A DNA stretch of 64,000 bases. Source: an uncultured Verrucomicrobiales bacterium (GTDB lineage: Bacteria > Verrucomicrobiota > Verrucomicrobiia > Verrucomicrobiales > DEV007). This document shows, piece after piece, positions 1,830 through 19,072 of the stretch (position 1 is its first letter; each line of letters starts with the position of its first letter). Location: assembly GCA_938091905.1 (NCBI GenBank), contig CALKOM010000022.1, positions 1 through 64,000 on the forward strand. Reading direction: 5' to 3'. The notes beneath the pieces were generated by a model. The model worked only from the letters and a program-made list of their open reading frames with translations. It was not told where the DNA came from and searched no databases. A program made the translations under genes and the position numbers.

Positions 1830-1840
1830 TTCGGGAGCCT

Positions 1841-2707
1841 TTATACGCCTTCTTCGCTCCCTTGCTGTTGGTTCATTTTTTTAACCATCCGTTGGCCGTA
1901 GGCATGCATGAGACTGGGAAAATAGCGCTGAATCATCCACAATACCTTGGCGTGCCCAGTCACCGGAATGACGGCCTTGTTTCTCGCCACGCCTTGCAGC
2001 GCTTTGAGGGCACACTCTTCTGATGTCATTGCCATCTTGAGTATCCACGCCGTCAACTTTTCGTCCGGAGGTGGTCCAACCGTCTTGCTCTCGAGGATCG
2101 GCGTCTTGATAAATCCCGGGCACACAACACTAACCTTAACCCCGTGTGCGACCGCCTCGGCACGAAGCGAGGTCGATAGCCCGACAACCGCGTGCTTTGA
2201 GGCGCAATAGGCAACGATACCCAATGCTGGAACCAGGCCAGAAACGCTAGCCATATTCACGATGTGCCCGTGGCCCTGCCCTATCATCACGGCATAGGCG
2301 GCGGCCGAGCCAGCGAATACCCCGTTCACGTTGACGTCGAGAACCCGTTTCCAATCGGCAGTTGAGTGGTAACGAAACTCGCCGAGGACAGCAATGCCCG
2401 CATTGTTGAACATGTAGTCGAGGTGCCCTTCTTCGTCGGCAATACGTCTAACAAAGCTTTCAACAGCACTGCTGTCGGTAACGTCAAGATAATGCGCCGA
2501 AGCTCTGCCACCTGACCTACAGATCTCCTCCGTAACGTTCATGACAGCATCATGCTGAACATCGGCCAGCATAACGTTGGCACCGTGGTTGGCTAAACGG
2601 CGCGCCAAGGCTCGACCGATGCCAGACGCTCCACCGGTTACCACAGCAACCTTGTTGTTGAATCTACTCACGGGGCGAAGTCTAACGGGGATTTCAGTGT
2701 TTACCAT
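1841..2707 (-). CDS. Short-chain dehydrogenase/reductase (SDR)
   Basis: TGGASGIG, NNAG and catalytic YCASK motifs. Start uncertain: ATG 2707 overlapping the upstream gene, or GTG 2671. Confidence 0.9.
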   Translation of the reverse strand: MVNTEIPVRLRPVSRFNNKVAVVTGGASGIGRALARRLANHGANVMLADVQHDAVMNVTEEICRSGGRASAHYLDVTDSSAVESFVRRIADEEGHLDYMFNNAGIAVLGEFRYHSTADWKRVLDVNVNGVFAGSAAAYAVMIGQGHGHIVNMASVSGLVPALGIVAYCASKHAVVGLSTSLRAEAVAHGVKVSVVCPGFIKTPILESKTVGPPPDEKLTAWILKMAMTSEECALKALQGVARNKAVIPVTGHAKVLWMIQRYFPSLMHAYGQRMVKKMNQQQGSEEGV

Positions 2708-4205: not shown

Positions 4206-4560
4206 TCGGCTTAATCGCTTTCTGCGCGACGATGGCGTGCCGCACGAGATCTGTAAAGTTCGAGTCTCAGAGTTTCACACACCAATCAACCTAGCAATCC
4301 GGCTACCCAGCTATTTCGGCAGTCGTCGCAGAATAAAGTGACTTGATGAAGCAAGTCGCCGGTCTCGATCGAAATCAAATTAAACAAAAGACCAAAAACG
4401 AAACCGACCTTACAAACACGTGAATACTCGAAACCGTTCCAAACCCGCAGAGGGACCTCATTGGAATACCGCCCTCTACTAAGAAGCGCTATCCTGAAGG
4501 TTGCCAGGCTTCCGCTTCAGATCGCCAGCATGAGTGTAAATTGGCGCTTTCTTCAAACAA

Positions 4561-5937
4561 TCATTCCCGCCCTTCCTCTTTCAACTCATTCAAGAGGGCA
4601 ATAGCTTTATCGACGACTCGCTCGCCGGTTCCGGGCTCCGCGTAACTGTGGAATCCGGTCCAAACCTGATAGCCACCGAGTTCGTGGGCGTCTTTGTCAG
4701 GAAGATAGCCAATCCAATCATTGGCAAGTTCAGCCACATAGGTGTGACGATACGGAGAGCGATTCTTGATATCGACGCCGAGTTTGGTGAAAAACTCTGC
4801 AGGCACACCAACCATGGCCACATCACCAATGACCATGGCGTGCACCCAGGTCTCGCGTTCTTCACCTTGCATGCTCGCGAGCTGCTGTCGCATCCGTCGG
4901 AAGATGGGAACGAAATTGTCCGCCGATTCGCCAACCCATTTACGGCAATACGTGCTAACCGCAGCCTCTTCAGCAGCTTCATCAAAGGTACGCACTCTAT
5001 ATTTGAACGACTCTTTGCGAGAGGCAAGTCGCTTCACCGGTCGACGTTCGGCCTTCGTCAGGGCTTCTTTGACTGCCGACGCGATTCGATCCGTAGCTTC
5101 GGCACAAGAAAGAGTAAGGTTGTGCGTGGAACCAGAAGCTCCTTCGACAAAGCTAAAGACGCCTCCTAAATCTTTCTCGAGGCGCTGGCCAGCCAATCCA
5201 TAGAACGAAGGCGATCTCACGCCAGGCTTAATCGTCCCTATGGTATGCGTCGAATGATTGAATAAGACCGCCTGTAGGACCCCGAGGCCTTCGTCAGAAG
5301 GTTCGCTGAACGCGAGGACGGGAAGCTCCGGATCAAACGGTCCCGTGGACCTGACAAACTCTCGGCGACCGATCCAATAAATACTCCCATCGGGGAGCAA
5401 CTGGCGGCTGTTCTGGCCGATAGTGGCTTCACGCCCAAGATGAAAGTGAAAGTCACATTCATTCGCTGATAGCTTGGCGTGGGCTTTCTTGACGGCGGAA
5501 ACGATTCCCTTCTGGACACGCATGGTAAAGCCAAGATCAGCAGCATACCCATGGACCTGCATAGTGCTCGGCGCGTGGTGCGTGTGGGTACAATTAATGA
5601 GAATGTTAGAAAAAGGGATTTCCGTTTCGTCTTCGATCTCCTTGGCCGCAACGTCGAGAACATCGCGGGTGATCATGAGGATATCGAGAGTGACGATCGC
5701 CAGCGTGACATCTTCCTTTTCCAGCACGATGGCGATGGCCCGTAGTTCCCCTTCCTGTCCTTGAGCGACACCTGGATGAATACCACCCGCAACGGGCATG
5801 TGATCGTTAGCTTTCAGGTTGACCGCAGCGGCTCCCACGCGCACACCGTCACCAGCCTGAAGTAACTGAGGAATAACTATCAGAAGCCCGAAAAGCAGAC
5901 ACAGCTTCCAGATACTGTTCAGGAATGTCGTTCGCAT
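4561..5937 (-). CDS. Secreted neutral/alkaline ceramidase-like metallo-hydrolase
   Basis: Signal-peptide-like N-terminus; CTHTHHAP metal motif; GPFDPEL, PAEFF and ANDWIGYLP...GGY C-terminal motifs. Confidence 0.7.
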   Translation of the reverse strand: MRTTFLNSIWKLCLLFGLLIVIPQLLQAGDGVRVGAAAVNLKANDHMPVAGGIHPGVAQGQEGELRAIAIVLEKEDVTLAIVTLDILMITRDVLDVAAKEIEDETEIPFSNILINCTHTHHAPSTMQVHGYAADLGFTMRVQKGIVSAVKKAHAKLSANECDFHFHLGREATIGQNSRQLLPDGSIYWIGRREFVRSTGPFDPELPVLAFSEPSDEGLGVLQAVLFNHSTHTIGTIKPGVRSPSFYGLAGQRLEKDLGGVFSFVEGASGSTHNLTLSCAEATDRIASAVKEALTKAERRPVKRLASRKESFKYRVRTFDEAAEEAAVSTYCRKWVGESADNFVPIFRRMRQQLASMQGEERETWVHAMVIGDVAMVGVPAEFFTKLGVDIKNRSPYRHTYVAELANDWIGYLPDKDAHELGGYQVWTGFHSYAEPGTGERVVDKAIALLNELKEEGRE

Positions 5938-7248: not shown

Positions 7249-8682
7249 CTAGCCGAAGATCTCGGTCAGCGGACTACCACTATCGACAATAGGCATAGGG
7301 CGGCCTTCGCGATTGGGAAGAAACAAATCGGGATCGATGCCTAAAGCCCAGTAGATCGTCTTAGCCAAGTCCTCAGGGCTCACGGGATTCTCGGTTGGAT
7401 ACGCGGCATGGTCGTCCGTCTTGCCGTAAACAATGCCTCCTCGGACTCCGGCACCAGCAATGAGACAAGGGAAACAGGTGCTCCAATGTCCGCGGCCCCA
7501 GTTGGGTTCACCCTTCGGCGTGCGCCCCATCTCGCCCATGGCAACGACCAAGGTTTCGTCTAACAAACCACGCTCGTCTAGATCTTCTAAAAGCGCAGCA
7601 CAGCCCTGATCAAAAGTCGGCAACAAGTGCTTCTGCACGTCGTCGCTGTTGCGATGTGAGTCCCAACTGTAGCCGTCTACGCAATCATAGTGCACGGTCG
7701 TGAAGCGCACACCAGCCTCGACCAAACGACGCGCCATGAGGCACGATTGCCCAAATAGATGTCGCCCGTAGCGGTCACGTAGCTTTGGCGATTCGCGATC
7801 GATTTGGAACGCATTGCCTGCTTTGTCTGAGGATACCAGTGCTAGGGCACGCTGCCGATTGCGATCCAGGGTATCCGCTTGTCCTGAATCTAATTTTCGC
7901 TGTAAGGCTTCAAACTGATCTAGCAGGGAACTGCGCGTCTGAATGCGTCCGATATCCAACTCAGGGGACAAGCCCTCGATCTTAAAGGTTAATTCGTCAT
8001 CGGTGCAATCGCGCCAATACGGATTGTCATCAGCATCGCGTTTATTGATCGCTGTCGTGAGTGGATTGTAGGCATTTCCTAACCAACCTCCAAATTGACC
8101 GGGACGCCGGTACTGCCCCTGATCTTGCAGGCGGCCTAACCAATTGGGGAGTGCTGCGTAAGCGGGCATCGGAGCTCCTCGATTCGCCTTGTTCTGTTGG
8201 CTAAGGTATTCAACGACCGATCCCATAGACGGCCAATCCTGCGGCGTGGCCACGAAGCCACCACCGATGGGGATCTGCCAACGCTTACCCGTTTGGATGT
8301 AGTGAGCAGCGCCGCTGTGATCGTTGTAATCGTGGGTCATGCTACGGATGACCGCAAACTTGTCAGAGATCTTGGCCAGGCGATGCAGATGGTCGCTAAT
8401 CAGGAGATCGGGTGTACGGCAAGCAATTGGCTTAAACGGTCCGCGAATCTCTTGCGGCGCTTCCGGTTTCATGTCGAACGTTTCAAGCTGACTCGGACCA
8501 CCAAAGAGAAACATGAAGATCACAGACTTGGCCTTGGCGCCAGCAAACGGCGTTTGAGCTTGCTCCGCAGCAAGGAGTCCTGGCAAATTCAATCCTAACA
8601 AACCAGCGCCGCCGACCTGTAGAAGCTCGCGCCGCGAGATGCCAGCACAGGATCGCTTTGGAAGGCCATTTACCGTGATCAT
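7249..8682 (-). CDS. DUF1501 domain protein (PVC-typical)
   Basis: SRRELLQVG leader, FLFGGPSQLETFDMKP, CLMARRLVEAGVRF, WDSH and GEMGRTP...GRGHW motifs. Start taken at ATG 8682. Confidence 0.9.
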   Translation of the reverse strand: MITVNGLPKRSCAGISRRELLQVGGAGLLGLNLPGLLAAEQAQTPFAGAKAKSVIFMFLFGGPSQLETFDMKPEAPQEIRGPFKPIACRTPDLLISDHLHRLAKISDKFAVIRSMTHDYNDHSGAAHYIQTGKRWQIPIGGGFVATPQDWPSMGSVVEYLSQQNKANRGAPMPAYAALPNWLGRLQDQGQYRRPGQFGGWLGNAYNPLTTAINKRDADDNPYWRDCTDDELTFKIEGLSPELDIGRIQTRSSLLDQFEALQRKLDSGQADTLDRNRQRALALVSSDKAGNAFQIDRESPKLRDRYGRHLFGQSCLMARRLVEAGVRFTTVHYDCVDGYSWDSHRNSDDVQKHLLPTFDQGCAALLEDLDERGLLDETLVVAMGEMGRTPKGEPNWGRGHWSTCFPCLIAGAGVRGGIVYGKTDDHAAYPTENPVSPEDLAKTIYWALGIDPDLFLPNREGRPMPIVDSGSPLTEIFG

Positions 8683-9477
8683 AGTAGAAAGATGATGCCA
8701 CGAAAGACCAATCAATCAAGATATCCTGCAACCTGGCAGTTTCTATGCCGACGCCGCCAGGCTATCGATGCCCTGAAGCGCATCTGAGGAGCAGACGATC
8801 CACGGGTGGCACAAACCGCCATCGCTGTCATGTCGAACGATCAGCCACCTCACTCTTCAGGAAAGCTGCCACCCACTTCGTAAGCCATTACCTGGATCTC
8901 TGAAGAGACGACCTTGCTCTATGAGTTGGCGTCACAGGTCCGCTAGTAAGCGCATGCTCTCGTTCCTTGATCATATTAACAGCATGGTGATTTGACGACT
9001 CCATATGATCACCAAAGCGAAAGCGTGGTGTCGTCCATAACATTCCCGTCAATCTGTATGGAGAATTCCTAGAGATGGGCCCTTTCCAGTTCCGCGGTCT
9101 TACCAAGGCTCTGAACTTGCTCCTCTAACAACTAATATCGCTCCTATGCGGCCTTCTACGGGATATGACCAACACCACTTTGGCTAGGCCTGGCAGGACG
9201 ACTAACATCATGGAAAGGGCGTTTGTCTCAAGGAAGCCGCTTCCAACACAATGATGCTGGGCCTGGCGAAAGAGCCCGCTGCGGCAACTGCTCAAAGTCG
9301 CCAAGGCTCGCTTTTACAGGGCTTACGCATGAAGGATATGGACGCCAAAACGAGGGGTTTCGGGTATTTCTGAACTCCTGGTAATGCCCATTCAATGCAC
9401 TTTCTGATAATTTCCATACTAGAGAAGTGCCATCAAATATACCTGCTCAGTTCTTGCGTAAGCCCGGTCGCCTTTAG

Positions 9478-9640
9478 CCTAAAAACGGCAACGGGACCCC
9501 TGAAATACTAGTAAAGCGTTGATTTTCAACGATTCTCGATTGCTCGGCAATGAACCCTGAGGATGACAACTACCTGGTGCTCAGGGGCCTGCAAATCAAG
9601 GGTGGCGCGCTGTTGCGCTGATTCCATCGCAGTTTTTAGG
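9478..9640. mobile_element. 163-bp MITE-like non-autonomous IS derivative
   Basis: Terminal inverted repeats CCTAAAAACGGCAACGGGA (9478-9496) and the reverse complement of 9622-9640 (CCTAAAAACTGCGATGGAA) match at 15/19. Flanked on both sides by direct repeat TTTAG (9473-9477, 9641-9645). Confidence 0.75.
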
Positions 9641-9738
9641 TTTAGCACCCAAACGCTCTCGTAAATGAGATTTAGATTCTATAAAAGATGCAAATACGGC
9701 TGTTCGCCATAAATAATTCTAAGTTTATCATAATATTC

Positions 9739-12700
9739 ATGCCCCAAAAATCTCCTATCGCCGTCATTGGACTCGGCTGCCGCTTTCCTGGCAGTCCGGG
9801 GCCGGAAGCGCTCTGGGACCGGCTGGCTGCTGGGGAGGACTTGGTGACACGGTGGCCTAAGGAGCGGTGGGATCTTCTGCGCCCCTTCTTCCCCCACCTC
9901 CCCGCCTACGATCCTGACGATGCTCCGTGGGGAGGTTTCATCGAGGACATCGACCGCTTTGATGCGGACCTCTTTAGAATGACTCCCCGGGAAGCCAAAG
10001 CGTTAGATCCACAGCAACGCCTTCTGTTAGAAATCGCCTGGGAGGCCTTTGAAGACGCCGGACAGGGGCCAAATGACCTTTCAGGATCCAGAACCGGAGT
10101 GTTTCTCGGCATGTCCAGCCACAACTATGGTGTGACGTCCTACAACCGAGCTGAGACTGATCTCTATACAACGACGGGCACGAGCAATGCAGTCGCCGCA
10201 AACAGACTGTCCTACCAGTGGAACCTGCGAGGACCGAGCATGACCATCGACACTGCCTGCTCCTCTTCACTCGTCGCCGTTCATCTCGCCTGCAGGAGCC
10301 TGTGGTCCGGAGAATCCACAGCGTCTTTGGCCGGCGGCGTTTCGTTGATGCTTCTACCACAAGTCACTCAGAGCTTCGCCTCGGCGGGGTTCATGGCAAG
10401 TGACGGCCGTTGCAAGGCCTTCGACGCGCGGGCCGATGGCTATGTGCGCGGTGAAGGCACGGGGTTGGTTCTCCTGAAACTCCTGCCAACGGCCATCGCC
10501 GATGGCGATCGCATTCACTGCGTCATTCGAGGTACGGCGATGAACCAGGACGGCCGCAGCAACGGCCTGACAGCCCCTAACCGACACGCTCAATCTCAAC
10601 TTCTCCGAGACGCTTATGAAGATGCGGGTATGGAGTCCTCTGAGGTGGACTACATCGAAGCCCACGGAACGGGAACGAAACTCGGAGATCCCATGGAAGC
10701 GAAGGCTCTCGCGGAAGCGTTGGGGACAGCACGGCGAACAGATCGTCCATGTCTCGTCGGTGCCATCAAGACTAACATAGGCCATCTCGAAGCCGCTGCG
10801 GGAATCGCTGGGCTCATCAAGACTGTCCTGGCCATACGCCATCAGCGGATTCCATCCAATCTTCACTATCAGTCTCCCAATCCTCTCATCCCCTTTGATT
10901 CGCTAGCCCTCAAAGTGCCGACCCGTCTAACACCGTGGCCAAACACCGCTCAACCAGCCCGAGCCGGGGTGAGTGCCTTTGGCTTCGGGGGTACCAATGC
11001 CCACGTCGTGCTTGAACAAGCTCCTGCCCCCTCAATTCCTCAGTACACTGACGACCGTGCTTCCACTCATCCTCACATTCTCACGCTGAACGCGCGTACA
11101 CCCGATGCCCTCAATTCGTTAGCACGCCGCTACGTCAACCATTTCGAGCGACATCAAGAAATATCCGTGGCAGATGCCGCTTACACTTCCCAGGTTGGAA
11201 GGGCAGCTCTACGATACAGGACGAGCCTGACAGCGAGAAGCCGCGAGGAGATGCTGGCGAAACTGAAGGAGACCGCGATGTCTTCGACATCCAAGAAGAG
11301 CGCCGTCACTCCCTCGCCCTCCGTCGCCTTTCTGTTCACAGGCCAGGGCGCCCAGTATCATCGAATGGGTCTGGCACTCTACAAAACTCAATCAGTTTTC
11401 CGCCAGCAGATGGATGCCTGTGCCAAGGCTCTTTCCGAATCTCTTGAGATCCCGCTAATTGACATCCTCAGGGGCGCGGGCAATGACCCGATCCTGTTGG
11501 ACCAGACCAACTACACACAACCAGCCCTCTTTGCCCTGGAACTCTCCTTGGCCCGGCTCTGGATTTCTTGGGGAATCCAGCCGGACTATTTGTTAGGGCA
11601 CAGCCTCGGCGAATACGTGGCAGCGACGCTCGCCGGAGTCTTTTCTGAGCGGGATGGAATTCGACTGATCGCAGCACGGGGGCGCCTTATGGCCGCGCTA
11701 CCTCAAAACGGGAGCATGGCTGTGGCTGAGACCGACGCAGAATGGGTAAAAGCACAGATCAAAGAGGAAAGCGATTCTGTTGCCATAGCAGCAATTAACG
11801 CGCCTGACCAAGTCGTCCTCTCCGGCGAGCAAGAGGCGATGGACAATCTGATTGCCTCCATTCGGAACGCCGGCCACAAGGTCAGACCGCTCCAAGTTTC
11901 CCATGCCTTTCATTCTCCGCTCATGGAACCCATGCTCGGAGAGTTTGAAGAGATCGTCCGCTCAACCCAGCTTTATCCTCCAGACAACGGGCTTAAGCTC
12001 ATTTCAAATCTCACCGGTAGGTTCGTCGGCGACGAAATTGCCCAACCGGAGTATTGGTGCCAGCAAATTCGGAACACGGTCCGATTTGCCGAGAGCGTCC
12101 GCTCCCTCGAAAAGTGTCAGTGCGACGTCTTTCTGGAGATTGGACCACACGCCATCCTCAATCCACTCGTGACCCGAAACCTCTCTGAGGAACCTTCAGG
12201 AAACAGCCCACTCTATGTCCAAAGTCTAATCAAAGGAGAGGACGATTCCCGCGTCATGCATGAATCTCTTGGGGCCCTTCACGATCGGGGGTGCCAGGTT
12301 GAGTGGGCAGCACTCCATCAGGGCAAGCCTCGGTCCCGCATCGAATTGCCCACATACCCCTTTCAGCGGTCTTCATTCTGGATCGATCCGGGGCCAGTGC
12401 CAGCCAGTTCTCTTCAGGCAAATCACGCGAAGGACTACTACGAACTCTCCTGGGAAGAACAGGAGCTTCATCAAGTAGTAAACGGCGCGCCAGTACGATG
12501 GTTTCTGCTTCTAGATGACAAAGGAGTGGGGCAAGCTCTGGCAAAACAACTGCGTATAACCGCGCCGGGCGACGACGTCATTATTATCCGCCGAGGTCTT
12601 CAGTGCCAACAAGTCTCCGAAGACCACTGGACCATCCGTCCGGGGAATGTCGACGATATCTGTACCTTGCTGAGCCATTGGAAGACCAAGCCTGACATTA

Positions 12701-15090
12701 AGTTCCATCATTTCGTCCATCTTTGGTCTCTGGACGCACCTGCCTTAGCCAAAGGTTTCGCCCCGACGCAAGCGGCGAAGTCCCTCACCTGTCAAAGCAT
12801 CCTCGCCTTGGTTCGCGCCTTGTCGACGACCCAGACCAAGATGGAAGACCACACTAACCTGCGGATCTCCATCGTCACCCAGGGAGCGGCTCCACTGGGC
12901 GACAATGCACCACCAGTCAGCAGCCTTACCCAATATTTCGCACGCGGTCTGGGCAAGAGCCTAGCCCTGGAACACCCTGAGTGGTGGCACGGAATGATCG
13001 ACCTTGAAGAGCATCGCTCTAGCAAAGGCACGCCCATTCAAGGCCTGACTGAGGCTCTGCGCTCAGAATCTCCGTGCCAGGAGTTGGCCCTTCGAAACGG
13101 CCTCTGCTTTGCGACACGCCTGAAACATCAGAAACTGACACCATCTCCATCTCCCAACCCGATCCATTTCCAGTCGCCCGCGACCTATCTTGTGACCGGA
13201 GGGTTTGGCGGCCTGGGCTCCGAAGTGCTCCCACGCCTCCACCGAATCGGGCTGGACCATCTCACCGTCCTGGGACGCCGTCCCGCTGACGACCCCTACG
13301 TGGTCGAGCGACTTGCAGCCCTCTCGCGTTTGGGAGCGAAGATTCTCTACCAATCTGTTGATGTGAGTGACCTTCAGGCGCTCCGGGCTTGCATGAACAG
13401 CGTGATCACGATCCACGAACTCACTATCAAAGGCATTGTTCATGCCGCTGGGATGACGGGAGTCGAAAGCGCGAAAGACATGGATTGGACTACGTTCGAC
13501 TCTGCGCTCCACGCGAAGGGCGACGGTGCCTGGCATCTTCACACTCTGTCCCAAGAACTGAGCCTGCCCCTAGACAACTTCATTCTCTTCTCCTCCATCG
13601 CAGGAACGTGGGGCTCCAAGGGACAGACTCACTACTCGGCCGCGAATCATTTCCTCGATGGTCTGGCGCACTACCGAAGATCACAAGGCTTACCGGCGAT
13701 CAGCATTGCATGGGGGCCATGGGAAGCCAACGGCATGGCCTCCGAGAGCTTCCGAGAGCGCCTGGAAAGTTTAGGTATCCGATCGCTTTCAACAGCTCAG
13801 GCCCTTGACTGGTTGGAATGCGCTCTCACAAAGAATCACACACCGGAACTCCCTCCCGTCCCCGTAGTAGTCGAAGCGGACTGGAATCAGGTTGCAGCTA
13901 GTTTCAGAGCTCAGGGCAGCGGCCAGATGTTCGAACACTTAACGGACACTAGCACGACACCAGCGTGTTTCTCTCCTATACCAACAGATGCCCAAGCGTT
14001 GGAGCCCGAGGTGAGACAAATCTGGCAAGACTGTCTCCAGGTTGATCCAATTGACCTGGACGACAGTTTCTTTGATCTTGGCGGCGACTCTATGGTCAGC
14101 ACCAGTCTGTTCGTTCAGATTCGAACGCGATGGGGAATGGAAATGTCAGGCAGCGCTCTCCTACGGGCACCGACATTACGCCAATTCTGTCAGGAAATTC
14201 TCTTGGCGCACCGAAGCGGTGCCGTGGGAAACGAGACCAAAGTCAATTCCGTGGTGACCATTCGGAAAGGGAAGAACGGAGAGATGCCATTCTTCTGGAT
14301 TCACGCCATTGGCGGAGGTGACGGGATAGGGTTTGTCCGCTTTCACGGACTTTTTGATGATTTATCAGACCGTATGGGTGGCACCTGCTATGGCCTTCGC
14401 AGCCATGCAGAGCCCTTCGAAACTGTCGAAGCGATGGCACGCCAGTTCATCGAAGACATGCGAGTCGTTCATCCCACCGGGCCCTACGCATTGGGAGCCT
14501 ACTGCACCTCGGGGGTGGTAGCCTATGAAATGGCCCGTCAACTTTCCGAGGCGGGCGAAGAGGTAAGTGCTCTCTTCATGATCGATACTCCTCCAGCGGT
14601 ATCCGCTTCCAAACCATCCATGGCGAGGAGGTTTCTCGGACTCTGTCAAAACACTCCTCACTGGCTCTTTGACAACGCCAGGTCAGGCCCCACCCGCCTC
14701 GCACGGAAGATCGGCCGCGGCGGCACGATTGCCAAGCGTAAGATCGGCCAGCGCTTGGGCATGACCTCACGCCCATCCATTGAGCTGTCCGATGTCATCG
14801 ACATGGAACGCTACCCCGTCGCTTCGAGAAAATACGCAGAAGCGCACTGGCGCGCCTACCGATCCTATCAACCGGAAGGCTATCGCGGAACCCTGACACT
14901 CTTTATTCCAAAAATCCGCAGCCTGCTTTGGTCCGATAGCGTGTCAGCTTGGAGATCATTCGCTCCGAGTGGTATGGAAGTGGAAGTCATTCCCGGCAAC
15001 CACTCATCGATGCTCGAATCTCCTCACGTAGACGAATTGGTATCCCGCATGCGCCGCCGAATTCGCAGATCCGAGGCACCCCCCGTTTAA
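9739..15090 (+). CDS. Single-module type I polyketide synthase KS-AT-KR-carrier-TE
   Basis: KS: DTACSSS, HGTGT, HLEAAAG. AT: GHSLG, HAFH (malonyl type). KR: TGGFGGLG, SSIAGTWGSKGQTHYSAAN. Carrier: FFDLGGDS. TE: GPYALGAYCTSG...IPGNH. No DH or ER motifs seen. Start probably ATG 9739 (the track gives 9688). Confidence 0.95.
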   Translation: MPQKSPIAVIGLGCRFPGSPGPEALWDRLAAGEDLVTRWPKERWDLLRPFFPHLPAYDPDDAPWGGFIEDIDRFDADLFRMTPREAKALDPQQRLLLEIAWEAFEDAGQGPNDLSGSRTGVFLGMSSHNYGVTSYNRAETDLYTTTGTSNAVAANRLSYQWNLRGPSMTIDTACSSSLVAVHLACRSLWSGESTASLAGGVSLMLLPQVTQSFASAGFMASDGRCKAFDARADGYVRGEGTGLVLLKLLPTAIADGDRIHCVIRGTAMNQDGRSNGLTAPNRHAQSQLLRDAYEDAGMESSEVDYIEAHGTGTKLGDPMEAKALAEALGTARRTDRPCLVGAIKTNIGHLEAAAGIAGLIKTVLAIRHQRIPSNLHYQSPNPLIPFDSLALKVPTRLTPWPNTAQPARAGVSAFGFGGTNAHVVLEQAPAPSIPQYTDDRASTHPHILTLNARTPDALNSLARRYVNHFERHQEISVADAAYTSQVGRAALRYRTSLTARSREEMLAKLKETAMSSTSKKSAVTPSPSVAFLFTGQGAQYHRMGLALYKTQSVFRQQMDACAKALSESLEIPLIDILRGAGNDPILLDQTNYTQPALFALELSLARLWISWGIQPDYLLGHSLGEYVAATLAGVFSERDGIRLIAARGRLMAALPQNGSMAVAETDAEWVKAQIKEESDSVAIAAINAPDQVVLSGEQEAMDNLIASIRNAGHKVRPLQVSHAFHSPLMEPMLGEFEEIVRSTQLYPPDNGLKLISNLTGRFVGDEIAQPEYWCQQIRNTVRFAESVRSLEKCQCDVFLEIGPHAILNPLVTRNLSEEPSGNSPLYVQSLIKGEDDSRVMHESLGALHDRGCQVEWAALHQGKPRSRIELPTYPFQRSSFWIDPGPVPASSLQANHAKDYYELSWEEQELHQVVNGAPVRWFLLLDDKGVGQALAKQLRITAPGDDVIIIRRGLQCQQVSEDHWTIRPGNVDDICTLLSHWKTKPDIKFHHFVHLWSLDAPALAKGFAPTQAAKSLTCQSILALVRALSTTQTKMEDHTNLRISIVTQGAAPLGDNAPPVSSLTQYFARGLGKSLALEHPEWWHGMIDLEEHRSSKGTPIQGLTEALRSESPCQELALRNGLCFATRLKHQKLTPSPSPNPIHFQSPATYLVTGGFGGLGSEVLPRLHRIGLDHLTVLGRRPADDPYVVERLAALSRLGAKILYQSVDVSDLQALRACMNSVITIHELTIKGIVHAAGMTGVESAKDMDWTTFDSALHAKGDGAWHLHTLSQELSLPLDNFILFSSIAGTWGSKGQTHYSAANHFLDGLAHYRRSQGLPAISIAWGPWEANGMASESFRERLESLGIRSLSTAQALDWLECALTKNHTPELPPVPVVVEADWNQVAASFRAQGSGQMFEHLTDTSTTPACFSPIPTDAQALEPEVRQIWQDCLQVDPIDLDDSFFDLGGDSMVSTSLFVQIRTRWGMEMSGSALLRAPTLRQFCQEILLAHRSGAVGNETKVNSVVTIRKGKNGEMPFFWIHAIGGGDGIGFVRFHGLFDDLSDRMGGTCYGLRSHAEPFETVEAMARQFIEDMRVVHPTGPYALGAYCTSGVVAYEMARQLSEAGEEVSALFMIDTPPAVSASKPSMARRFLGLCQNTPHWLFDNARSGPTRLARKIGRGGTIAKRKIGQRLGMTSRPSIELSDVIDMERYPVASRKYAEAHWRAYRSYQPEGYRGTLTLFIPKIRSLLWSDSVSAWRSFAPSGMEVEVIPGNHSSMLESPHVDELVSRMRRRIRRSEAPPV

Positions 15091-15096
15091 AAACAC

Positions 15097-16905
15097 ATGA
15101 ACCCGGCCCAAACTATTGTCGACATTCTCCGCATTCACGCCTCGCGGAATCCAGATCGCCTTATCTATCAGTTTCTCAGGGACGGCGAGATCATATCCTC
15201 AACACTAACTTGCGGCGAAATCTTGCAGAAAGCCACAGCCGTTGCGGATCAGCTCCACTTCCACGGAATCAATCGCGGAGAGCGCGCCCTATTGGTTTAT
15301 CCCTCTGGTCCGGAATTTGTCATCTCCCTTCTAGGCTGTATGGCAGCGGGTGTCATCGCAGTACCAGCCTCCGCTCCCCGTCCACGACGCCACGACGAGC
15401 GGCTGGAGAGGATCGTCAGAGACGCAGAAGTGTCCGCGATCCTCACAAGCGAAACGCTTGTCGACGATCTTCAAACGCGGATGGTGGATTCTTGGAGAGA
15501 CGGGGCAGCCCCCCGCCTCATCACCCCAAACCAGCAAGAGTCACCAAGCCCATCGACCTCCATGCCCAACCTCGGCTCGGGCGACATAGCGTTCTTACAA
15601 TACACCTCCGGCTCCACAGGCAAACCCAAGGGAGTCATGGTGTCGCACGGAAACATACTGAATAATCTATCATACATCGAAACCGCATTTCAGTTAGTTC
15701 CATCTGAAACGGTGTCGGTCACGTGGCTTCCCAGCTTCCATGACATGGGCCTAATCGACGGCCTCTTGGAGCCCCTCTACCTCTCTTGCCCTGGCATTAT
15801 CATGCCACCTGCCGCGTTCCTTCAGAAGCCAGTCCGGTGGCTTCAGGCGATCTCGAACTTTCGAGGCACTCACAGCGGAGGGCCCAACTTCGCCTACCAG
15901 TTATGCGCCCGCATCAATGAGAACCAGAGAGAAACCCTGGACCTGAGTAGCTGGACGACTGCCTACAGTGGTGCCGAGCCCGTCCGAGAATTGACCATTC
16001 GTCAGTTCTCCGAGGTCTTTCGTCCTCAAGGATTCCAGAAGCGCTACTTCTACCCCTGCTACGGCCTGGCTGAAAACACCTTGATGGTTTCCGGTGGCAT
16101 GGCCGATACCCCTCCAGTAGCTCTCCAATTCCACACGCAATCACTACTGCGAGGGCAGGCTCAATTGGCACATAGTGGAGAGGAACCAAGCACGACCTTG
16201 GTGAGCTCAGGCAAAGTGTGGCTGGACACCGACCTTCGCATCGTCAATCCCAAAAACTGCCGAGAATGCACACCCGGCGAGATCGGGGAGGTTTGGGTGA
16301 AGGGCTCGAGCGCAGGACAGGGTTATTGGCAAGACTCGGCTAGAACCGATGAAACATTTAAGGCGCAATTGGAGAAACTGAATGGCTGTCTTGACGGTCC
16401 CTTCCTACGTACCGGGGATCTTGGGTTCCTTTGGGATGGTGAACTCTTCGTGGCCGGGCGCCTTAAAGACGTCATTATCATCAAGGGACACAATCACTAT
16501 CCTCAGGACATCGAGGCGAGCGTCGAGGAGTGTCATCCGTCTCTCCGTCCGGCAGCCTGCGCCGCCTTCTCCGCTCAGGATGGCACTGACGAAAGGCTGG
16601 TCCTGGCCGTCGAAGTAGAACGGACGGCCCTCCGGTCGTTCGACGAGAAATCGGTCTTCGCCGCCATCCGGCGTGTCGTTTCTGAGAACCATGATCTCTC
16701 GGTTTCCGCAATCTGTCTGCTTCGGCCTGGGAGTATCCCCAAGACCTCAAGTGGGAAGATCCAGCGGCACCGGTGTCTACAAGCCTTCCTTTCCAATCAA
16801 CTCCGCAGCGTCGCCTCATGGTGTAGGTCTAACATCACCCCAGAGAATCAACTTGTTCGTCTTAGTGACCATGAATTCTTCCTACAGCCCAGCATTAAAT
16901 CCTAA
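15097..16905 (+). CDS. Fatty acyl-AMP ligase (FAAL)
   Basis: FLQYTSGSTGKPKGV, WLPSFHDMGLI, YGLAE followed by a FAAL-type insertion, LRTGDLGF, NHYPQDIE, IPKTSSGKIQR. Confidence 0.92.
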   Translation: MNPAQTIVDILRIHASRNPDRLIYQFLRDGEIISSTLTCGEILQKATAVADQLHFHGINRGERALLVYPSGPEFVISLLGCMAAGVIAVPASAPRPRRHDERLERIVRDAEVSAILTSETLVDDLQTRMVDSWRDGAAPRLITPNQQESPSPSTSMPNLGSGDIAFLQYTSGSTGKPKGVMVSHGNILNNLSYIETAFQLVPSETVSVTWLPSFHDMGLIDGLLEPLYLSCPGIIMPPAAFLQKPVRWLQAISNFRGTHSGGPNFAYQLCARINENQRETLDLSSWTTAYSGAEPVRELTIRQFSEVFRPQGFQKRYFYPCYGLAENTLMVSGGMADTPPVALQFHTQSLLRGQAQLAHSGEEPSTTLVSSGKVWLDTDLRIVNPKNCRECTPGEIGEVWVKGSSAGQGYWQDSARTDETFKAQLEKLNGCLDGPFLRTGDLGFLWDGELFVAGRLKDVIIIKGHNHYPQDIEASVEECHPSLRPAACAAFSAQDGTDERLVLAVEVERTALRSFDEKSVFAAIRRVVSENHDLSVSAICLLRPGSIPKTSSGKIQRHRCLQAFLSNQLRSVASWCRSNITPENQLVRLSDHEFFLQPSIKS

Positions 16906-16917
16906 CGATTTCCCACA

Positions 16918-17187
16918 GTGAGCATAAACACTCCCCCCACGGCTCGAGAGATCCAAGACTGGTTCTTACCGAAATTAGCCAATGCGCTAGACCTCCCTAT
17001 AGAAGAAATAGAGCTGGATACCTCCTTTGCCGAGTATGGTCTGGATTCTTCCGTCGCTCTCGGCCTAACTGGCGAACTCAGTGACTGGCTCCAGGCCCCG
17101 TTGGAGGCCACCACCCTCTGGGACTATCCCAATATCAAAACCCTTGCGGCCAGCCTAGCCAGGCTCGAAGCGGAGTCCTCGGGCTAA
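16918..17187 (+). CDS. Stand-alone acyl carrier protein
   Basis: 89 aa, acidic; FAEYGLDS phosphopantetheine site and LWDYPNI motif typical of FAAL-partner ACPs. Confidence 0.92.
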   Translation: MSINTPPTAREIQDWFLPKLANALDLPIEEIELDTSFAEYGLDSSVALGLTGELSDWLQAPLEATTLWDYPNIKTLAASLARLEAESSG

Positions 17188-17199
17188 AACAAACGAACC

Positions 17200-18450
17200 A
17201 TGCCTGAATCAGCCCCCCTATCCAGTTCACTTCGATTCAATCCGTTGAGCGAAGAATTTCAGGAAAACCCCTATCCCTACTATCAACGTCTACGCGAAGA
17301 GGATCCGGTTCATCGAAGCTGGAGCTTCCAACCCGAATGGATTCTAACCCGCTACGACGATGTCCGCCGCGTGCTCCTCGACCGAGAAGTCTTCGCAGTC
17401 GAGAAACTAGATCAAAAGCTGCGGGCCAAGAACCGCCTTCTCGCCGCTGAGGGCAAAGATCTCAACAGTCTCGTGAACGTCACAAGCGGTTGGCTTCTAT
17501 TCATCGATCCTCCGAACCATACGCGCCTCCGCAGCTTGGTCATCAGAGCTTTCACCCCACGAGTCGTGGAGGACATCGCCCCACAGATTCAGGATATCGT
17601 CACCGGGTTGATCGACGCCTTCGCCGGGGACCAAGAAGTGGACGTCGTCAGAGGCCTAGCCAGTCCGCTTCCGGTAATCGTGATCGCCACGATGCTAGGA
17701 CTCCCCATTGAGGATCAGGAAAGACTGAAACATTGGGCAGAAACAATGTTTCGAGTGGTCGATCAGCTCCACACACTGGACGGCTACGTTGAAATGGAGA
17801 CCTCGGCTCGGGAGTTCGGCTCCTATCTGAGAGAATTAATAGAGAAACGGGAAAATCACCCGCCACGCAAGGATCTCCTAGGAGCCCTCTTGTCCGCTCG
17901 CGACAAAGATGATCGCCTGAGTCACGACGAGATCATTAGCTTCACGATGTTGCTCTTCAGCGCTGGCGAGGAAACCACTCTCAATCTCATCGGCAACGGA
18001 TTACATGCCCTCTTACATCATCCTCAGGCCTATCGCCAATGGCAGCAAGAGCCTAAACTCACCAACTCTGCAGTGGAGGAATTCCTTCGCTTCGACAGCC
18101 CCGTGCAGTTGATCTCCCGTGTCGCAGTCAGCGACCTTCAGCTTAATGGCAAGATGATCAAGGCTGGTGATCGCGTCGTGGCCTGCCTGGGCGCCGCCAA
18201 CCGGGACCCAAAGCAATTCTCCCGTCCTGATCACCTCGACCTCGCTCGTGCAGACAACCGCCACCTCGCCTTTGGCGGCGGCCTGCATCATTGCGTGGGA
18301 GCGCCCCTCGCCCGTCTTGAGGGCCAGATCGCCCTTCGTTCATTGTTAGACCGATTCCCAGATATGACCCTCGTGCCCAATAGCGTAATACGCCGCCCGA
18401 ACCGGGCCTTGCGCGGTCTCTCACAGCTGATCGTGCGTTTGGTTCCCTAA
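17200..18450 (+). CDS. Cytochrome P450 (CYP107/BioI-like architecture)
   Basis: DPPNHTRLR, I-helix AGEETT, EEFLRFDSP (ExxR), AANRDP and heme ligand FGGGLHHCVG. Confidence 0.95.
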   Translation: MPESAPLSSSLRFNPLSEEFQENPYPYYQRLREEDPVHRSWSFQPEWILTRYDDVRRVLLDREVFAVEKLDQKLRAKNRLLAAEGKDLNSLVNVTSGWLLFIDPPNHTRLRSLVIRAFTPRVVEDIAPQIQDIVTGLIDAFAGDQEVDVVRGLASPLPVIVIATMLGLPIEDQERLKHWAETMFRVVDQLHTLDGYVEMETSAREFGSYLRELIEKRENHPPRKDLLGALLSARDKDDRLSHDEIISFTMLLFSAGEETTLNLIGNGLHALLHHPQAYRQWQQEPKLTNSAVEEFLRFDSPVQLISRVAVSDLQLNGKMIKAGDRVVACLGAANRDPKQFSRPDHLDLARADNRHLAFGGGLHHCVGAPLARLEGQIALRSLLDRFPDMTLVPNSVIRRPNRALRGLSQLIVRLVP

Positions 18451-18556
18451 CGCAAAGCAAGCCTCCTTTCGCAGCGAAGGCCCCCGAGAGATCTGGGCAT
18501 AGTCCTCAATATGGCTTCAGCAGGGCAAAGGCAACGACAACGCCGCCCTGCAACGA

Positions 18557-19072
18557 TCACGTCCAGCTCCGGCGGAGGCGGACTATCAACGGCTGAGCGA
18601 AGAGGTAGAGCCCGCTTACTAGCATCACAAGTAGGACAACGGCTGAAGGGAGGAAGATCCAAAGTTTAGCCAAGGGGTGGAAGAAACTTCCGTCGTGAAT
18701 CGACTCGATCAGATCGGATCTGCGATAAGCCGTCTGGAGGACCTCGCCTGTGGCCAAGTCGACCTGCACTTCCCAACCGTTGTGGCTCTTCACTTTGACG
18801 ACACCTTTCGAAGCGCGCACATCGAGTCGCTCGATGTCGTCCCAGCTGGTGATCGCAGCCGCCTCGACACTGGCGGCCGCATTGTAGATCTCTTCGAAAC
18901 CAATGGTCGGCAACTTGCTGCTACCATTGATTGTGTCTGGCTGAATCCAGGCAAACTCTTTCTTGAGGAGGAGCAGAACACCTGTGCCAATGACAACTAG
19001 CAGAGGTACTGCTACGAGGAGCGAGGCCCAGTAGTGCGTCCTACGAGCCAAGCGCTTCCATGAAAAGTTCAT
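18557..19072 (-). CDS. PepSY-associated TM helix domain protein
   Basis: RRTHYW plus TM helix at N-terminus; IESIHDGSFF plus TM helix with SGLYL at C-terminus. Confidence 0.8.
   Translation of the reverse strand: MNFSWKRLARRTHYWASLLVAVPLLVVIGTGVLLLLKKEFAWIQPDTINGSSKLPTIGFEEIYNAAASVEAAAITSWDDIERLDVRASKGVVKVKSHNGWEVQVDLATGEVLQTAYRRSDLIESIHDGSFFHPLAKLWIFLPSAVVLLVMLVSGLYLFAQPLIVRLRRSWT

What the first reader, a model, noticed from the sequence alone, without database searches (positions are those of the whole stretch)
14250..15090. Thioesterase with a cysteine nucleophile downstream of a beta-hydroxy-forming KR: candidate beta-lactone synthase
Seen: the nucleophile elbow is GPYALGAYCTSG (Cys codon TGC at 14503-14505) where type I TEs usually have GxSxG; a candidate Asp (FMIDT) and His (IPGNH) are retained. 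Established: Cys-nucleophile TEs form strained rings in obafluorin (ObiF, beta-lactone) and sulfazecin (SulM, beta-lactam). Inference: a Cys-TE receiving a 3-hydroxyacyl chain could release a 4-alkyl beta-lactone, either as a hydrolase-inhibitor-type warhead or as a precursor that loses CO2 to give a 1-alkene without sulfation. Caveat: Cys also occurs in TEs that are not known to cyclise.
Basis: partly seen in the sequence, partly recalled or inferred. Interest (0 to 1): 0.8.

Follow-up and report, generated by a model that had tools for sequence, protein, structure and literature searches.

The report
Cysteine thioesterase ending a one-module PKS
The chain-releasing domain of a small fatty-acid-extending polyketide synthase in a marine Verrucomicrobium really uses cysteine where serine is usual, but it belongs to a large, uncharacterised cysteine-type family and lacks the extra hallmarks of the enzymes known to make beta-lactones.

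Summary
ORF 9688-15090 (+) is a KS-AT-KR-ACP-TE synthase. TGC at 14503-14505 encodes Cys1606 in an A-Y-C-T-S nucleophile elbow, with Asp1633 and His1772 retained.

The beta-lactone reading gains no positive support.
- The Cys is inherited with a large clade. 102 of the 150 nearest representatives carry Cys, and the domain nests in an all-Cys clade. The best solved relative is the uncharacterised AB3403 TE.
- ObiF and SulM place the triad Asp after strand beta7 and group with type II TEs (PMC11298585). This domain keeps Asp after beta6.
- The only two orthologues lack the KR and have a mutated KS His and AT Ser, so they cannot make a beta-hydroxyl. They still keep the Cys/Asp/His TE.
- Related Cys-TEs also follow modules without KR, fully reducing modules and FAAL-ACP alone.

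Most likely the chain is released through an acyl-S-Cys intermediate to a nucleophile other than its own 3-hydroxyl. Beta-lactone release is not excluded (about 0.1).

The parts
9688..15090 (+). Type I PKS gene, 1800 aa from the first ATG (P0001). The database representative P0002 (1783 aa) starts at Met18, ATG 9739. Architecture KS-AT-KR-ACP-TE, no DH, ER or sulfotransferase.
   Evidence: ORF list, translation, Pfam, NCBIfam, P0002.
9751..10869 (+). Ketosynthase (residues 22-394). Catalytic Cys in TACSSS (189-194); His in HGTGT (326) and in GHLE (365).
   Evidence: Pfam PF00109 and PF02801; motif positions. The motif rule is quoted in PMC11513958 (passage).
11329..12282 (+). Acyltransferase (residues 548-865) with GHSLG (637) and HAFH (739), the malonyl-type fingerprint.
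   Evidence: Pfam PF00698, E 1.4e-61; motifs. The fingerprint rule is quoted in PMC11513958 (passage).
13180..13725 (+). Ketoreductase (residues 1165-1346). TGGFGGLG nucleotide motif and Tyr1316 in YSAAN. Trp sits 8 residues before the Tyr and there is no LDD inside the domain, which is the A-type pattern by a recalled rule.
   Evidence: Pfam PF08659, E 2.5e-53; sequence; motif scan. The stereo-type rule is recalled (Keatinge-Clay 2007) and was not tested.
14008..14196 (+). Integrated ACP (residues 1441-1503). Phosphopantetheine Ser1468 in GGDS (14089-14091).
   Evidence: Pfam PF00550; motif.
14293..15057 (+). Thioesterase domain (residues 1536-1790), alpha/beta hydrolase with a lid of about 80 residues (helices at model residues 136-217).
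   Evidence: Pfam PF00975; AF2 model; fold matches.
14503..14505 (+). TGC = Cys1606, the nucleophile, in the elbow A-Y-C-T-S.
   Evidence: Aligned to the Cys of AB3403.
14584..14586 (+). Asp1633 (FMIDT), the triad acid at 'position I', after strand beta6.
   Evidence: Aligned to the Asp of AB3403 in IVMIDT. Conserved as D in both orthologues.
15001..15003 (+). His1772 (IPGNH), the triad histidine after the last strand.
   Evidence: Invariant in alignment A1 (H263). Model. His in 149 of 150 representatives; the remaining alignment did not reach the position.
15097..16905 (+). Fatty acyl-AMP ligase (602 aa), 6 nt after the PKS stop. It is the loading enzyme.
   Evidence: Pfam PF00501 and PF23024. 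NCBIfam best full-length model: fatty-acid--AMP ligase PRK05850, E 2.7e-141 (below its cut-off). Fused to the ACP in the orthologues.
16918..17187 (+). Free-standing ACP (89 aa, GTG start), Ser44 in GLDSS (17047-17049). It supplies the loading carrier that the PKS lacks at its N-terminus.
   Evidence: ORF list at 40 aa; Pfam PF00550, E 1.9e-13; alignment A3.
17200..18450 (+). Cytochrome P450 (416 aa), CYP107-like. It is the best conserved gene of the cassette (62% identity to both orthologues).
   Evidence: Pfam. PDB: PksS 2.9e-86, BioI 1.8e-81. Identities.

Best explanation
The domain is a genuine chain-terminating thioesterase with a Cys1606-His1772-Asp1633 triad. It belongs to the large, mostly NRPS-borne Cys-TE clade whose only solved member is the uncharacterised AB3403 of Acinetobacter baumannii. 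It is not of the ObiF/SulM type.

It ends a compact four-gene pathway. The FAAL adenylates a fatty acid and loads it on the free-standing ACP. The KS takes the chain over, and the AT supplies malonate for one extension. The KR reduces the 3-keto group. The resulting 3-hydroxyacyl chain, two carbons longer, passes from the integrated ACP to Cys1606 as a thioester.

I propose that release is by a nucleophile other than the chain's own 3-hydroxyl. My rough split within this reading is:
- about 0.35: water, giving a free 3-hydroxy fatty acid that may be P450-oxidised;
- about 0.30: a distal hydroxyl installed by the co-conserved P450, or an external O or N acceptor, giving a lactone, ester or amide.

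Shown here: domain order, catalytic residues, clade membership and cassette conservation. Inferred: substrate, order of steps, point of action of the P450, and the releasing nucleophile.
For: (1) Anatomy. The domains and catalytic motifs are all present. FAAL, ACP and P450 follow with gaps of 6, 12 and 12 nt.

(2) Clade.
- The profile of 24 TE sequences hits AB3403 first (E 3.1e-53 over profile positions 5-280). The next hit is at 6.7e-48 and RifR, a type II TE, at 5.1e-09.
- Elbow residues: 25 Cys, 45 Ser and 1 Gly among 71 homologues, with the seven best all Cys; 102 Cys, 45 Ser, 2 Gly and 1 Ala among the 150 best of 1.84 billion representatives.
- In the IQ-TREE tree of 78 rows the domain sits in a 31-row all-Cys clade (SH-aLRT 98). 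The Cys/Ser label needs 4 changes against 18 in shuffles. The FastTree tree of 192 rows needs 13 against 60.7.

(3) Triad geometry. Asp1633 follows strand beta6, aligns with the position I Asp of AB3403, and is D in both orthologues. ObiF1 and SulM use the loop after beta7 instead (PMC11298585 section 4).

(4) Orthologues G020 and G025 (TE 48-49% identical). They carry KS HGTGT changed to QGTAT, AT GHSLG changed to GFG(A/T)G, and have lost GQG and HAFH. The KR is absent: about 530 residues are replaced by about 70. KS Cys, ACP Ser and TE Cys/Asp/His are kept, and the P450 is 62% identical. A TE dedicated to closing a ring on a KR-made 3-hydroxyl would have no substrate there.

(5) Cys-TEs also follow KS-AT-ACP (P0053), FAAL..KS-AT-DH-ER-KR-ACP (P0032) and FAAL-ACP (P0089).

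(6) Characterised Cys-TEs do other chemistry. BulbE does indole N-acylation and O- and N-macrocyclisation, and its nearest folds are Pks13 TE and NocB TE, as here. The polymyxin TE does macrolactamisation (PMC11792885 passages).
Against: No member of the AB3403-like clade has a defined reaction, so clade membership does not name a chemistry.

Terminal modules with KR but no DH recur among the PKS-borne Cys-TEs I found. They are this one, L094 (..AT-KR-ACP-TE), L043 and P0087 (KS-AT-KR-ACP-TE-TE), and P0090 (AT-KR-ACP-ST-TE-TE). Some link between Cys and 3-oxygenated chains therefore cannot be dismissed. The sample was chosen by similarity to a Cys-TE and is small.

This TE also has an Asp (D1750, WSDS) on the loop after strand beta7. 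It is Asn in both orthologues.

The orthologues may be decaying genes, in which case their evidence is weaker. The split between hydrolysis and acyl transfer is my judgement, not a result.
Confidence: 0.62

Rival explanations
1. The acyl-S-Cys1606 intermediate is attacked by the chain's own 3-hydroxyl (4-exo-trig) and leaves as a 4-alkyl beta-lactone.
For: A Cys nucleophile and a 3-hydroxyacyl substrate are both present. [quoted passage not shown] Four PKS-type lineages pair a KR-only module with a Cys-TE. Ac-505 hints at an electrophilic product in the AB3403 pathway (PMC5376624).
Against: The Asp is after beta6, not in the relocated position shared by ObiF1 and SulM. In ObiF1, moving the Asp to that site gave no activity (PMC11298585 section 4). 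The TE is far nearer to AB3403 than to any type II-like TE. The orthologues keep the TE without a KR. Cys-TEs also occur behind modules that give no 3-hydroxyl. Cys is the clade's common state. No resistance or decarboxylase gene lies in the operon.
Confidence: 0.1
2. Ester-forming release that uses a 3-hydroxyl intermolecularly. The TE couples two or more 3-hydroxyacyl units into a dimer, an oligo-ester or a macrodiolide. In chemistry this resembles PHA synthase PhaC (a Cys-His-Asp alpha/beta hydrolase acting on 3-hydroxyacyl thioesters) and the oligomerising TEs of EntF and Vlm2.
Against: No sequence relation to PhaC families was seen in Pfam. The orthologues without a KR argue against it in the same way as against the beta-lactone.
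Confidence: 0.08
3. Olefin-synthase-like termination. The 3-hydroxyacyl chain is released with decarboxylation to a 1-alkene, directly or through a beta-lactone, without sulfation.
For: FAAL/ACP priming plus KS-AT-KR-ACP-TE is the Ols/CurM layout minus the sulfotransferase (layout recalled). One relative, P0090, is AT-KR-ACP-ST-TE-TE with a Cys elbow.
Against: There is no sulfotransferase domain and no leaving group. CurM-type TEs are not among the listed sequence hits. No OleB-like gene is in the operon.
Confidence: 0.03
4. The TE is an editing or vestigial domain, and release is done elsewhere.
For: Both glycines of the elbow are replaced (A-x-C-x-S). Tandem TE-TE relatives include dead copies with Gly or Ala at the elbow.
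Against: Cys, Asp and His are all kept in three species. It is the only TE in the operon. The model is confident. Small residues at the elbow positions are tolerated in alpha/beta hydrolases (recalled).
Confidence: 0.04

Closest known systems
TE domain of AB3403 (ABBFA_003403), the four-domain NRPS of Acinetobacter baumannii, PDB 4ZXH/4ZXI
   Different: It ends a C-A-T NRPS module, not a PKS module. Its elbow is G-W-C-F-G rather than A-Y-C-T-S. Its chain is an acyl-amino acid. Its reaction is unknown.
ObiF/ObiF1 TE (obafluorin beta-lactone) and SulM TE (sulfazecin beta-lactam)
   Same: Cys nucleophile. A substrate with a nucleophile on the beta carbon.
   Different: Their Asp sits on the loop after beta7, with Gly at the beta6 site in ObiF1. 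They group with type II TEs such as RifR. SulM has a Gln-Cys-Asn motif (PMC11298585; PMC6668435). Here the Asp is after beta6, the motif is Tyr-Cys-Thr, and RifR scores 5.1e-09 against 3.1e-53 for AB3403. Their substrates are small N-acyl amino acids on an NRPS.
BulbE TE (bulbiferamide) and polymyxin TE
   Same: Cys-type type I TEs. BulbE's nearest folds are Pks13 TE and NocB TE, which are also near the top here (PMC11792885 passage).
   Different: They macrocyclise peptides through N or O nucleophiles in an NRPS context. I did not hold their sequences, so no direct alignment was made.
Pks13 with FadD32 (mycolic acid condensation) and its TE
   Different: Ser nucleophile, no KR, N-terminal ACP. 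Its AT loads a long carboxyacyl chain and its TE transfers the product to trehalose (recalled).
Olefin synthase (Ols) and CurM terminal module: FAAL-ACP-KS-AT-KR-ACP-ST-TE (layout recalled)
   Same: Fatty-acid priming, one malonate extension, KR, ACP and TE.
   Different: No sulfotransferase domain. The loading FAAL and ACP are separate genes downstream. The TE is of another clade and carries Cys. A P450 is co-conserved.
Human fatty acid synthase TE (PDB 2PX6 and others)
   Different: Ser nucleophile and a simple hydrolase.

Membership tests
Type I thioesterase domain (Pfam PF00975, alpha/beta hydrolase) | Match to the family model over its curated cut-off | tested here: met
   66.2 bits against a cut-off of 26.4, residues 1536-1790.
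Type I thioesterase domain (Pfam PF00975, alpha/beta hydrolase) | Nucleophile on the strand-turn-helix elbow, acid, and His after the last strand | tested here: met
   Model: Cys97 between strand 91-96 and helix 97-112; Asp124 after strand 117-123; His263 after strand 254-259. All three align to the triad residues of AB3403. Distances were not measured.
AB3403-like Cys-TE clade (named here after its only solved member) | Cys at the elbow and nearest relatives with Cys | tested here: met
   The seven best of 71 homologues are all Cys. 102 of 150 representatives are Cys. The domain lies inside a 31-row all-Cys clade, SH-aLRT 98.
AB3403-like Cys-TE clade (named here after its only solved member) | Acid (or Asn) at position I after beta6 | tested here: met
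   Asp1633. Among the 102 Cys rows this position is E 43, D 39, N 15, other 5.
AB3403-like Cys-TE clade (named here after its only solved member) | Terminal domain of an NRPS C-A-T module (the usual context) | tested here: not met
   Here it follows KS-AT-KR-ACP. Most relatives are C-A-TE.
Beta-lactone/beta-lactam-forming TEs (ObiF/SulM type) | Cys nucleophile | tested here: met
   Cys1606.
Beta-lactone/beta-lactam-forming TEs (ObiF/SulM type) | Triad Asp relocated to the loop after beta7 (position II), with no acid at the beta6 site | tested here: not met
   Asp1633 occupies the beta6 site and is conserved in both orthologues. An Asp on the beta7 loop (D1750) exists but is Asn in the orthologues. 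The criterion is from PMC11298585. Geometry was not measured.
Beta-lactone/beta-lactam-forming TEs (ObiF/SulM type) | Sequence kinship with ObiF/SulM and type II TEs rather than with EntF- or AB3403-type TEs | tested here: not met
   Profile search: AB3403 3.1e-53, EntF 1.7e-31, RifR 5.1e-09. No chain named ObiF or SulM is among the 60 listed of 106 matches. ObiF and SulM sequences were not held, so no direct alignment was made.
Beta-lactone/beta-lactam-forming TEs (ObiF/SulM type) | Fold nearest to the ObiF1 or SulM TE | tested here: inconclusive
Beta-lactone/beta-lactam-forming TEs (ObiF/SulM type) | Gln-Cys-Asn motif (SulM-type beta-lactam criterion) | tested here: not met
   Tyr-Cys-Thr here. 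The criterion is from PMC11298585.
Beta-lactone/beta-lactam-forming TEs (ObiF/SulM type) | Tethered substrate bears a beta-hydroxyl or beta-amino nucleophile | tested here: met
   Inferred from a KR with intact motifs and no DH. Not met in the two orthologues.
Beta-lactone/beta-lactam-forming TEs (ObiF/SulM type) | The product is a four-membered ring | not testable with these tools
   Needs a biochemical assay.
Olefin synthase / CurM-type ST-TE termination | Sulfotransferase domain between ACP and TE | tested here: not met
   No sulfotransferase family in Pfam on P0001. P0090, a relative, does have PF13469.

The most novel reading that the evidence does not exclude
A position-I (EntF/AB3403-type) Cys-His-Asp thioesterase fused to a PKS module closes the KR-made 3-hydroxyl onto the acyl-S-Cys thioester and releases a long-chain 4-alkyl beta-lactone. 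This would be the first cis-acting PKS beta-lactone TE. It would also hint that the large uncharacterised AB3403-like Cys-TE clade releases electrophilic lactone-type products, as the Ac-505 adduct suggested.
Probability: 0.1. Interest if true: 0.8.

Novelty: new variant of a known kind. Interest (0 to 1): 0.4.

Why it matters
Cys-nucleophile thioesterases are known from a handful of characterised enzymes. In the sequence neighbourhood sampled here they are the majority: 102 of the 150 nearest representatives. Their only solved relative of this type, AB3403, has no assigned reaction.

This operon is small (four genes, one extension). It takes a simple fatty-acyl substrate and comes in two natural forms: one elongating with a KR, the other non-elongating without one. 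That makes it a tractable system for asking what a position-I Cys-TE does with a plain acyl chain.

The practical message for genome mining is that a Cys at the TE elbow is not a predictor of strained-ring formation. The placement of the triad Asp and the clade of the domain have to be checked as well.

Tried and rejected
- Complex prediction for P450 (alignment A2) with the free-standing ACP (A3). The aim was to test whether the P450 could act on the tethered chain.
- Fold searches. Chains of ObiF1 or SulM do not appear in the 50 entries listed by Foldseek or VIA-align. This is told only as an absence from short lists.
- Rfam on the whole window: 0 matches.
- Promoter and terminator scan of 8600-18800: 3 promoter-like sites against 4.2 expected and 13 terminator-like sites against 9.6 expected, no more than chance.
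- Literature. 'KS-AT-KR-ACP-TE' with 'fatty acyl-AMP ligase' gave 0 papers. A search for beta-lactone, PKS, TE, 3-hydroxyacyl and cysteine gave no PKS cis-TE beta-lactone case among the 15 listed of 53. The search for 'globilactone/GloD' gave only a citing paper, so the nucleophile of GloD was not learned. These are two or three searches of an open-access library, not proof that nothing is in print.
- Earlier findings of this scan: nothing near the place or by words.
- RNA libraries. Short contigs of four metatranscriptome runs lie on parts of all four genes. Some bridge FAAL/ACP and ACP/P450. The tool warns that DNA can be present in such libraries and that contigs show no single transcript, so uncovered bins mean nothing. 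I use this only as a weak hint that the operon is expressed.
- Link between KR-only modules and Cys-TEs. I considered a real statistical link but rejected a test. The sample was selected by similarity to a Cys-TE, there are few lineages, and counter-examples exist (P0053, P0032, P0089, and the G020 and G025 orthologues).
- I considered masking the elbow column before tree building but did not do it. It is 1 of 285-287 columns.


Full report
**1. What is at the coordinates.**
The window carries one long ORF on the + strand, 9688-15090. It translates to 1800 residues (P0001). Pfam gives these domains, with no DH, ER or sulfotransferase:
- KS, residues 22-394
- AT, 548-865
- KR, 1165-1346
- ACP, 1441-1503
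- TE, 1536-1790 (PF00975, 66.2 bits, cut-off 26.4)

The codon at 14503-14505 is TGC, in frame, and encodes Cys1606. Asp1633 in FMIDT is at 14584-14586 and His1772 in IPGNH at 15001-15003. Both glycines of the usual G-x-S-x-G are replaced as well, so the elbow is A-Y-C-T-S.

**2. Structure.**
I modelled the last 291 residues with AlphaFold2 on a 24-row alignment (A1). Mean pLDDT is 85.6 and pTM 0.88. Cys is model residue 97, at the junction of strand 91-96 and helix 97-112, which is the nucleophile elbow. Asp124 ends strand 117-123. His263 follows strand 254-259. A helical lid spans about residues 136-217. Only the summary of the model was returned, so I measured no distances.

|---|---|---|
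| Human FAS TE | 24.4 | |
| EntF PCP-TE | 24.0 | |
| AB3403 | 23.7 | rmsd 2.2, 26% identity, the highest identity |
| Pks13 TE | 23.2 | |
| Oocydin branching TE | 22.7 | |
| NocB TE | 22.6 | |
| RifR | 20.1 | |

Foldseek gave the same families.

**3. The operon.**
The next gene starts six bases after the PKS stop. It is a fatty acyl-AMP ligase at 15097-16905 (PF00501 plus PF23024; NCBIfam FAAL model PRK05850, E 2.7e-141, below its cut-off).

Twelve bases further lies an 89-residue ORF at 16918-17187 that only shows at a 40-aa threshold. It is an ACP (PF00550, E 1.9e-13). The PKS has no N-terminal carrier, so this is the loading ACP.

Twelve bases further still is a P450 at 17200-18450. Its best solved relatives are PksS (2.9e-86) and BioI (1.8e-81), which makes it CYP107-like.

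The motifs are those of an active, malonate-specific, reducing module:
- KS: TACSSS, HGTGT and a downstream GHLE.
- AT: GHSLG and HAFH.
- KR: TGGFGGLG and Tyr1316. The KS and AT rules are quoted in PMC11513958 (passage).
- A Trp lies eight residues before the KR Tyr, and there is no LDD inside the KR. That is the A-type pattern, by a rule I recall and did not test.

The tethered product should therefore be a 3-hydroxyacyl chain two carbons longer than the primer. This is inference.

The rest of the window is unrelated metabolism.

Short contigs of four metatranscriptome libraries lie on all four genes at 95-100% likeness. Two of them cover the Cys codon. Near-identical DNA occurs in marine, seawater and estuary metagenomes of several studies. 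Named cluster members are labelled Verrucomicrobiales bacterium.

**4. Is the Cys special to this enzyme? No.**
I checked four sets of relatives.
- Word-indexed search with the TE region. 71 homologues other than the query's own cluster aligned over the elbow: 25 Cys, 45 Ser, 1 Gly. The seven best by E-value are all Cys.
- Exhaustive HMMER search of 1.84 billion cluster representatives. It returned 109 proteins at E of 1e-30 or better. Among the 150 best, the elbow is Cys in 102, Ser in 45, Gly in 2 and Ala in 1. Most are terminal C-A-T-TE NRPS modules.
- FastTree tree of 192 TE rows. The window's TE joins the two orthologues (support 99), and then P0093, a hybrid with Cys. The Cys/Ser label needs 13 changes against 60.7 in shuffles.
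- IQ-TREE 'quick' tree of 78 rows. I took the first 46 rows in BLAST order plus every fourth of the rest, minus eight rows flagged as long branches. The TE sits in a 31-row clade that is entirely Cys (SH-aLRT 98), inside a 51-row all-Cys group. The label needs 4 changes against 18. The elbow column was left in (1 of 285).

In one genome per species the scan used the pattern VA[YF]E[MI]A[RQ]QL. Of 601 matched stretches, 592 encode relatives, and the best 80 were kept. Their elbows are Cys 20, Ser 59 and Gly 1. The six best are Cys.

**5. Which kind of Cys-TE?**
A profile of A1 against all PDB sequences puts AB3403 first:

| Match | E-value |
|---|---|
| AB3403 (aligned over profile positions 5-280) | 3.1e-53 |
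| A bifunctional NRPS TE (7CRN) | 6.7e-48 |
| NocB TE | 5.3e-40 |
| FAS TE | 1.1e-38 |
| Pks13 TE | about 1e-35 |
| EntF | 1.7e-31 |
| RifR (type II) | 5.1e-09 |

No chain named ObiF or SulM is among the 60 listed of 106 matches. In the printed alignments AB3403's GWCFGG, IVMIDT and PGDH align with Cys1606, Asp1633 and His1772.

I read section 4 and passages of the SulM TE paper (PMC11298585). It states four things:
- ObiF1 and SulM alone among solved NRPS TEs move the triad Asp to the loop after beta7 ('position II').
- Putting the Asp back at the beta6 site did not restore ObiF activity.
- Both group with type II TEs in the authors' tree.
- AB3403 is the only other solved Cys-TE, has its Asp at position I and is uncharacterised.

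Passages of the ObiF1 paper (PMC6668435) say the same with a different strand numbering. On that criterion this TE is of the AB3403 kind. An Asp on the beta7 loop, D1750, does exist here, but it is Asn in both orthologues.

Passages of the BulbE paper (PMC11792885) show that Cys-TEs also perform indole N-acylation and O- and N-macrocyclisation, and that the polymyxin TE performs macrolactamisation. BulbE's nearest folds are Pks13 TE and NocB TE, as for this domain.

**6. The orthologues.**
I searched 151 genomes of the order, G000 included. Besides G000 itself, only two genomes, both of one sister genus, hold a close relative: G020 and G025, with TEs 49% and 48% identical. The two same-genus genomes searched do not (best E 3.0e-20).

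Their loci show PPTase, then PKS, then a FAAL-ACP fusion, then P450. Identities to the window's proteins are FAAL 44-45%, ACP 51-52% and P450 62%.

Their PKS is 1398 aa and lacks the KR altogether. Window residues 904-1433 correspond to about 70 residues. The KS HGTGT reads QGTAT. The AT GHSLG reads GFG(A/T)G, and GQG and HAFH are gone. The KS Cys, ACP Ser and TE Cys/Asp/His are intact, and the elbow reads GAYCSSG with a TGC codon.

These modules can hardly extend or reduce a chain, yet they keep the Cys-TE and a strongly conserved P450. A TE whose job was to close a ring on a KR-made 3-hydroxyl would have nothing to act on there.

One further inference follows. If no extension occurs, activating a fatty acid only to hydrolyse it again is wasteful. 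That is why I give acyl transfer or lactonisation onto a P450-installed hydroxyl nearly as much weight as hydrolysis.

**7. Other fatty-acyl and PKS contexts of Cys-TEs.**

| Protein or locus | Architecture |
|---|---|
| L094 (Chthoniobacterales MAG) | ..AT-KR-ACP-TE(Cys) |
| L043 (Caldilineales MAG) | KS-AT-KR-ACP-TE(Cys)-TE(Gly); KS 57% identical to the window's |
| P0087 | KR-ACP-TE-TE |
| P0090 | AT-KR-ACP-sulfotransferase-TE-TE, elbows Ala and Cys |
| P0053 | KS-AT-ACP-TE(Cys), no KR |
| P0032 | FAAL..KS-AT-DH-ER-KR-ACP-TE(Cys) |
| P0089 | FAAL-ACP-TE(Gly)-TE(Cys) |

Cys-TEs therefore receive unextended, 3-keto, 3-hydroxy, sulfated (presumably) and saturated chains. The sample is small and was selected by similarity to a Cys-TE.

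**8. Verdict.**
The premises of the interpretation hold: a Cys nucleophile and a 3-hydroxyacyl substrate. Its conclusion gains no positive support, and the marks beyond Cys that distinguish the known ring-forming TEs are not met.

I file the domain as a PKS-borne variant of the AB3403-like Cys-TE clade. I consider release to a nucleophile other than the chain's own 3-hydroxyl most likely (0.62), and beta-lactone formation possible (about 0.1).

The points against my reading are these:
- The clade has no characterised reaction.
- The Ac-505 metabolite of the AB3403 operon was interpreted as a possible adduct of an electrophile such as a lactone (PMC5376624 passages).
- I could not inspect the model's geometry, and I did not hold ObiF or SulM sequences for a direct alignment.

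Noticed in passing
L028 9374-13570 (+) and L029 8407-12603 (-): The only two orthologues of the PKS are non-elongating relics. The KS first catalytic His is replaced by Gln, the AT Ser by Gly (with GQG and HAFH lost), and the KR is deleted. The KS Cys, ACP Ser and TE Cys/Asp/His are kept. They are flanked by a PPTase, a FAAL-ACP fusion and a P450 62% identical to the window's.
   Followed up: yes
window 16918-17187 (+): An 89-aa free-standing ACP with a GTG start lies between the FAAL and the P450. It is invisible at usual ORF length cut-offs. In the orthologues it is fused to the FAAL.
   Followed up: yes
proteins P0074-P0222: Among the 150 nearest TE representatives, the residue at the beta6 'position I' depends on the nucleophile. 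Ser-type rows have Asp in 43 of 45. Cys-type rows have Glu 43, Asp 39, Asn 15 and other 5 of 102. The third triad member seems relaxed in Cys-TEs.
   Followed up: partly
P0090 (1976 aa); L043 28-6828 (+); P0087; P0089: A family with tandem TE-TE domains has one elbow dead (Gly or Ala) and the other Cys (GGRCFGG). P0090 is AT-KR-ACP-sulfotransferase-TE-TE, an olefin-synthase-like layout with a Cys-TE. L043 is KS-AT-KR-ACP-TE-TE. P0089 is FAAL-ACP-TE-TE.
   Followed up: partly
L094 2-3442 (+) and 4130-5104 (-): A Chthoniobacterales MAG contig carries another ..AT-KR-ACP-TE with a Cys elbow (GGECVGG). A sphingolipid-type fatty acid desaturase gene lies next to it on the other strand. P0053 has the same elbow but no KR.
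   Followed up: partly
window 606-5937 (-): A run of minus-strand genes lies about 3.7 kb upstream of the PKS: saccharopine-dehydrogenase-like, SDR, flavin monooxygenase-like (FMO/BVMO type), and a protein with a weak ceramidase N-terminal match below cut-off. They are separated from the PKS by a DUF1501 gene and are not found next to the orthologues.
   Followed up: no
window 8716-9687: About 970 bases without a convincing ORF lie ahead of the PKS. There is no Rfam match, and promoter-like sites are no more frequent than chance.
   Followed up: partly
window 9688-9738: The first ATG adds 17 residues (MQIRLFAINNSKFIIIF) ahead of Met18. The database representative P0002 starts at Met18 (ATG 9739), which is probably the true start.
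   Followed up: no
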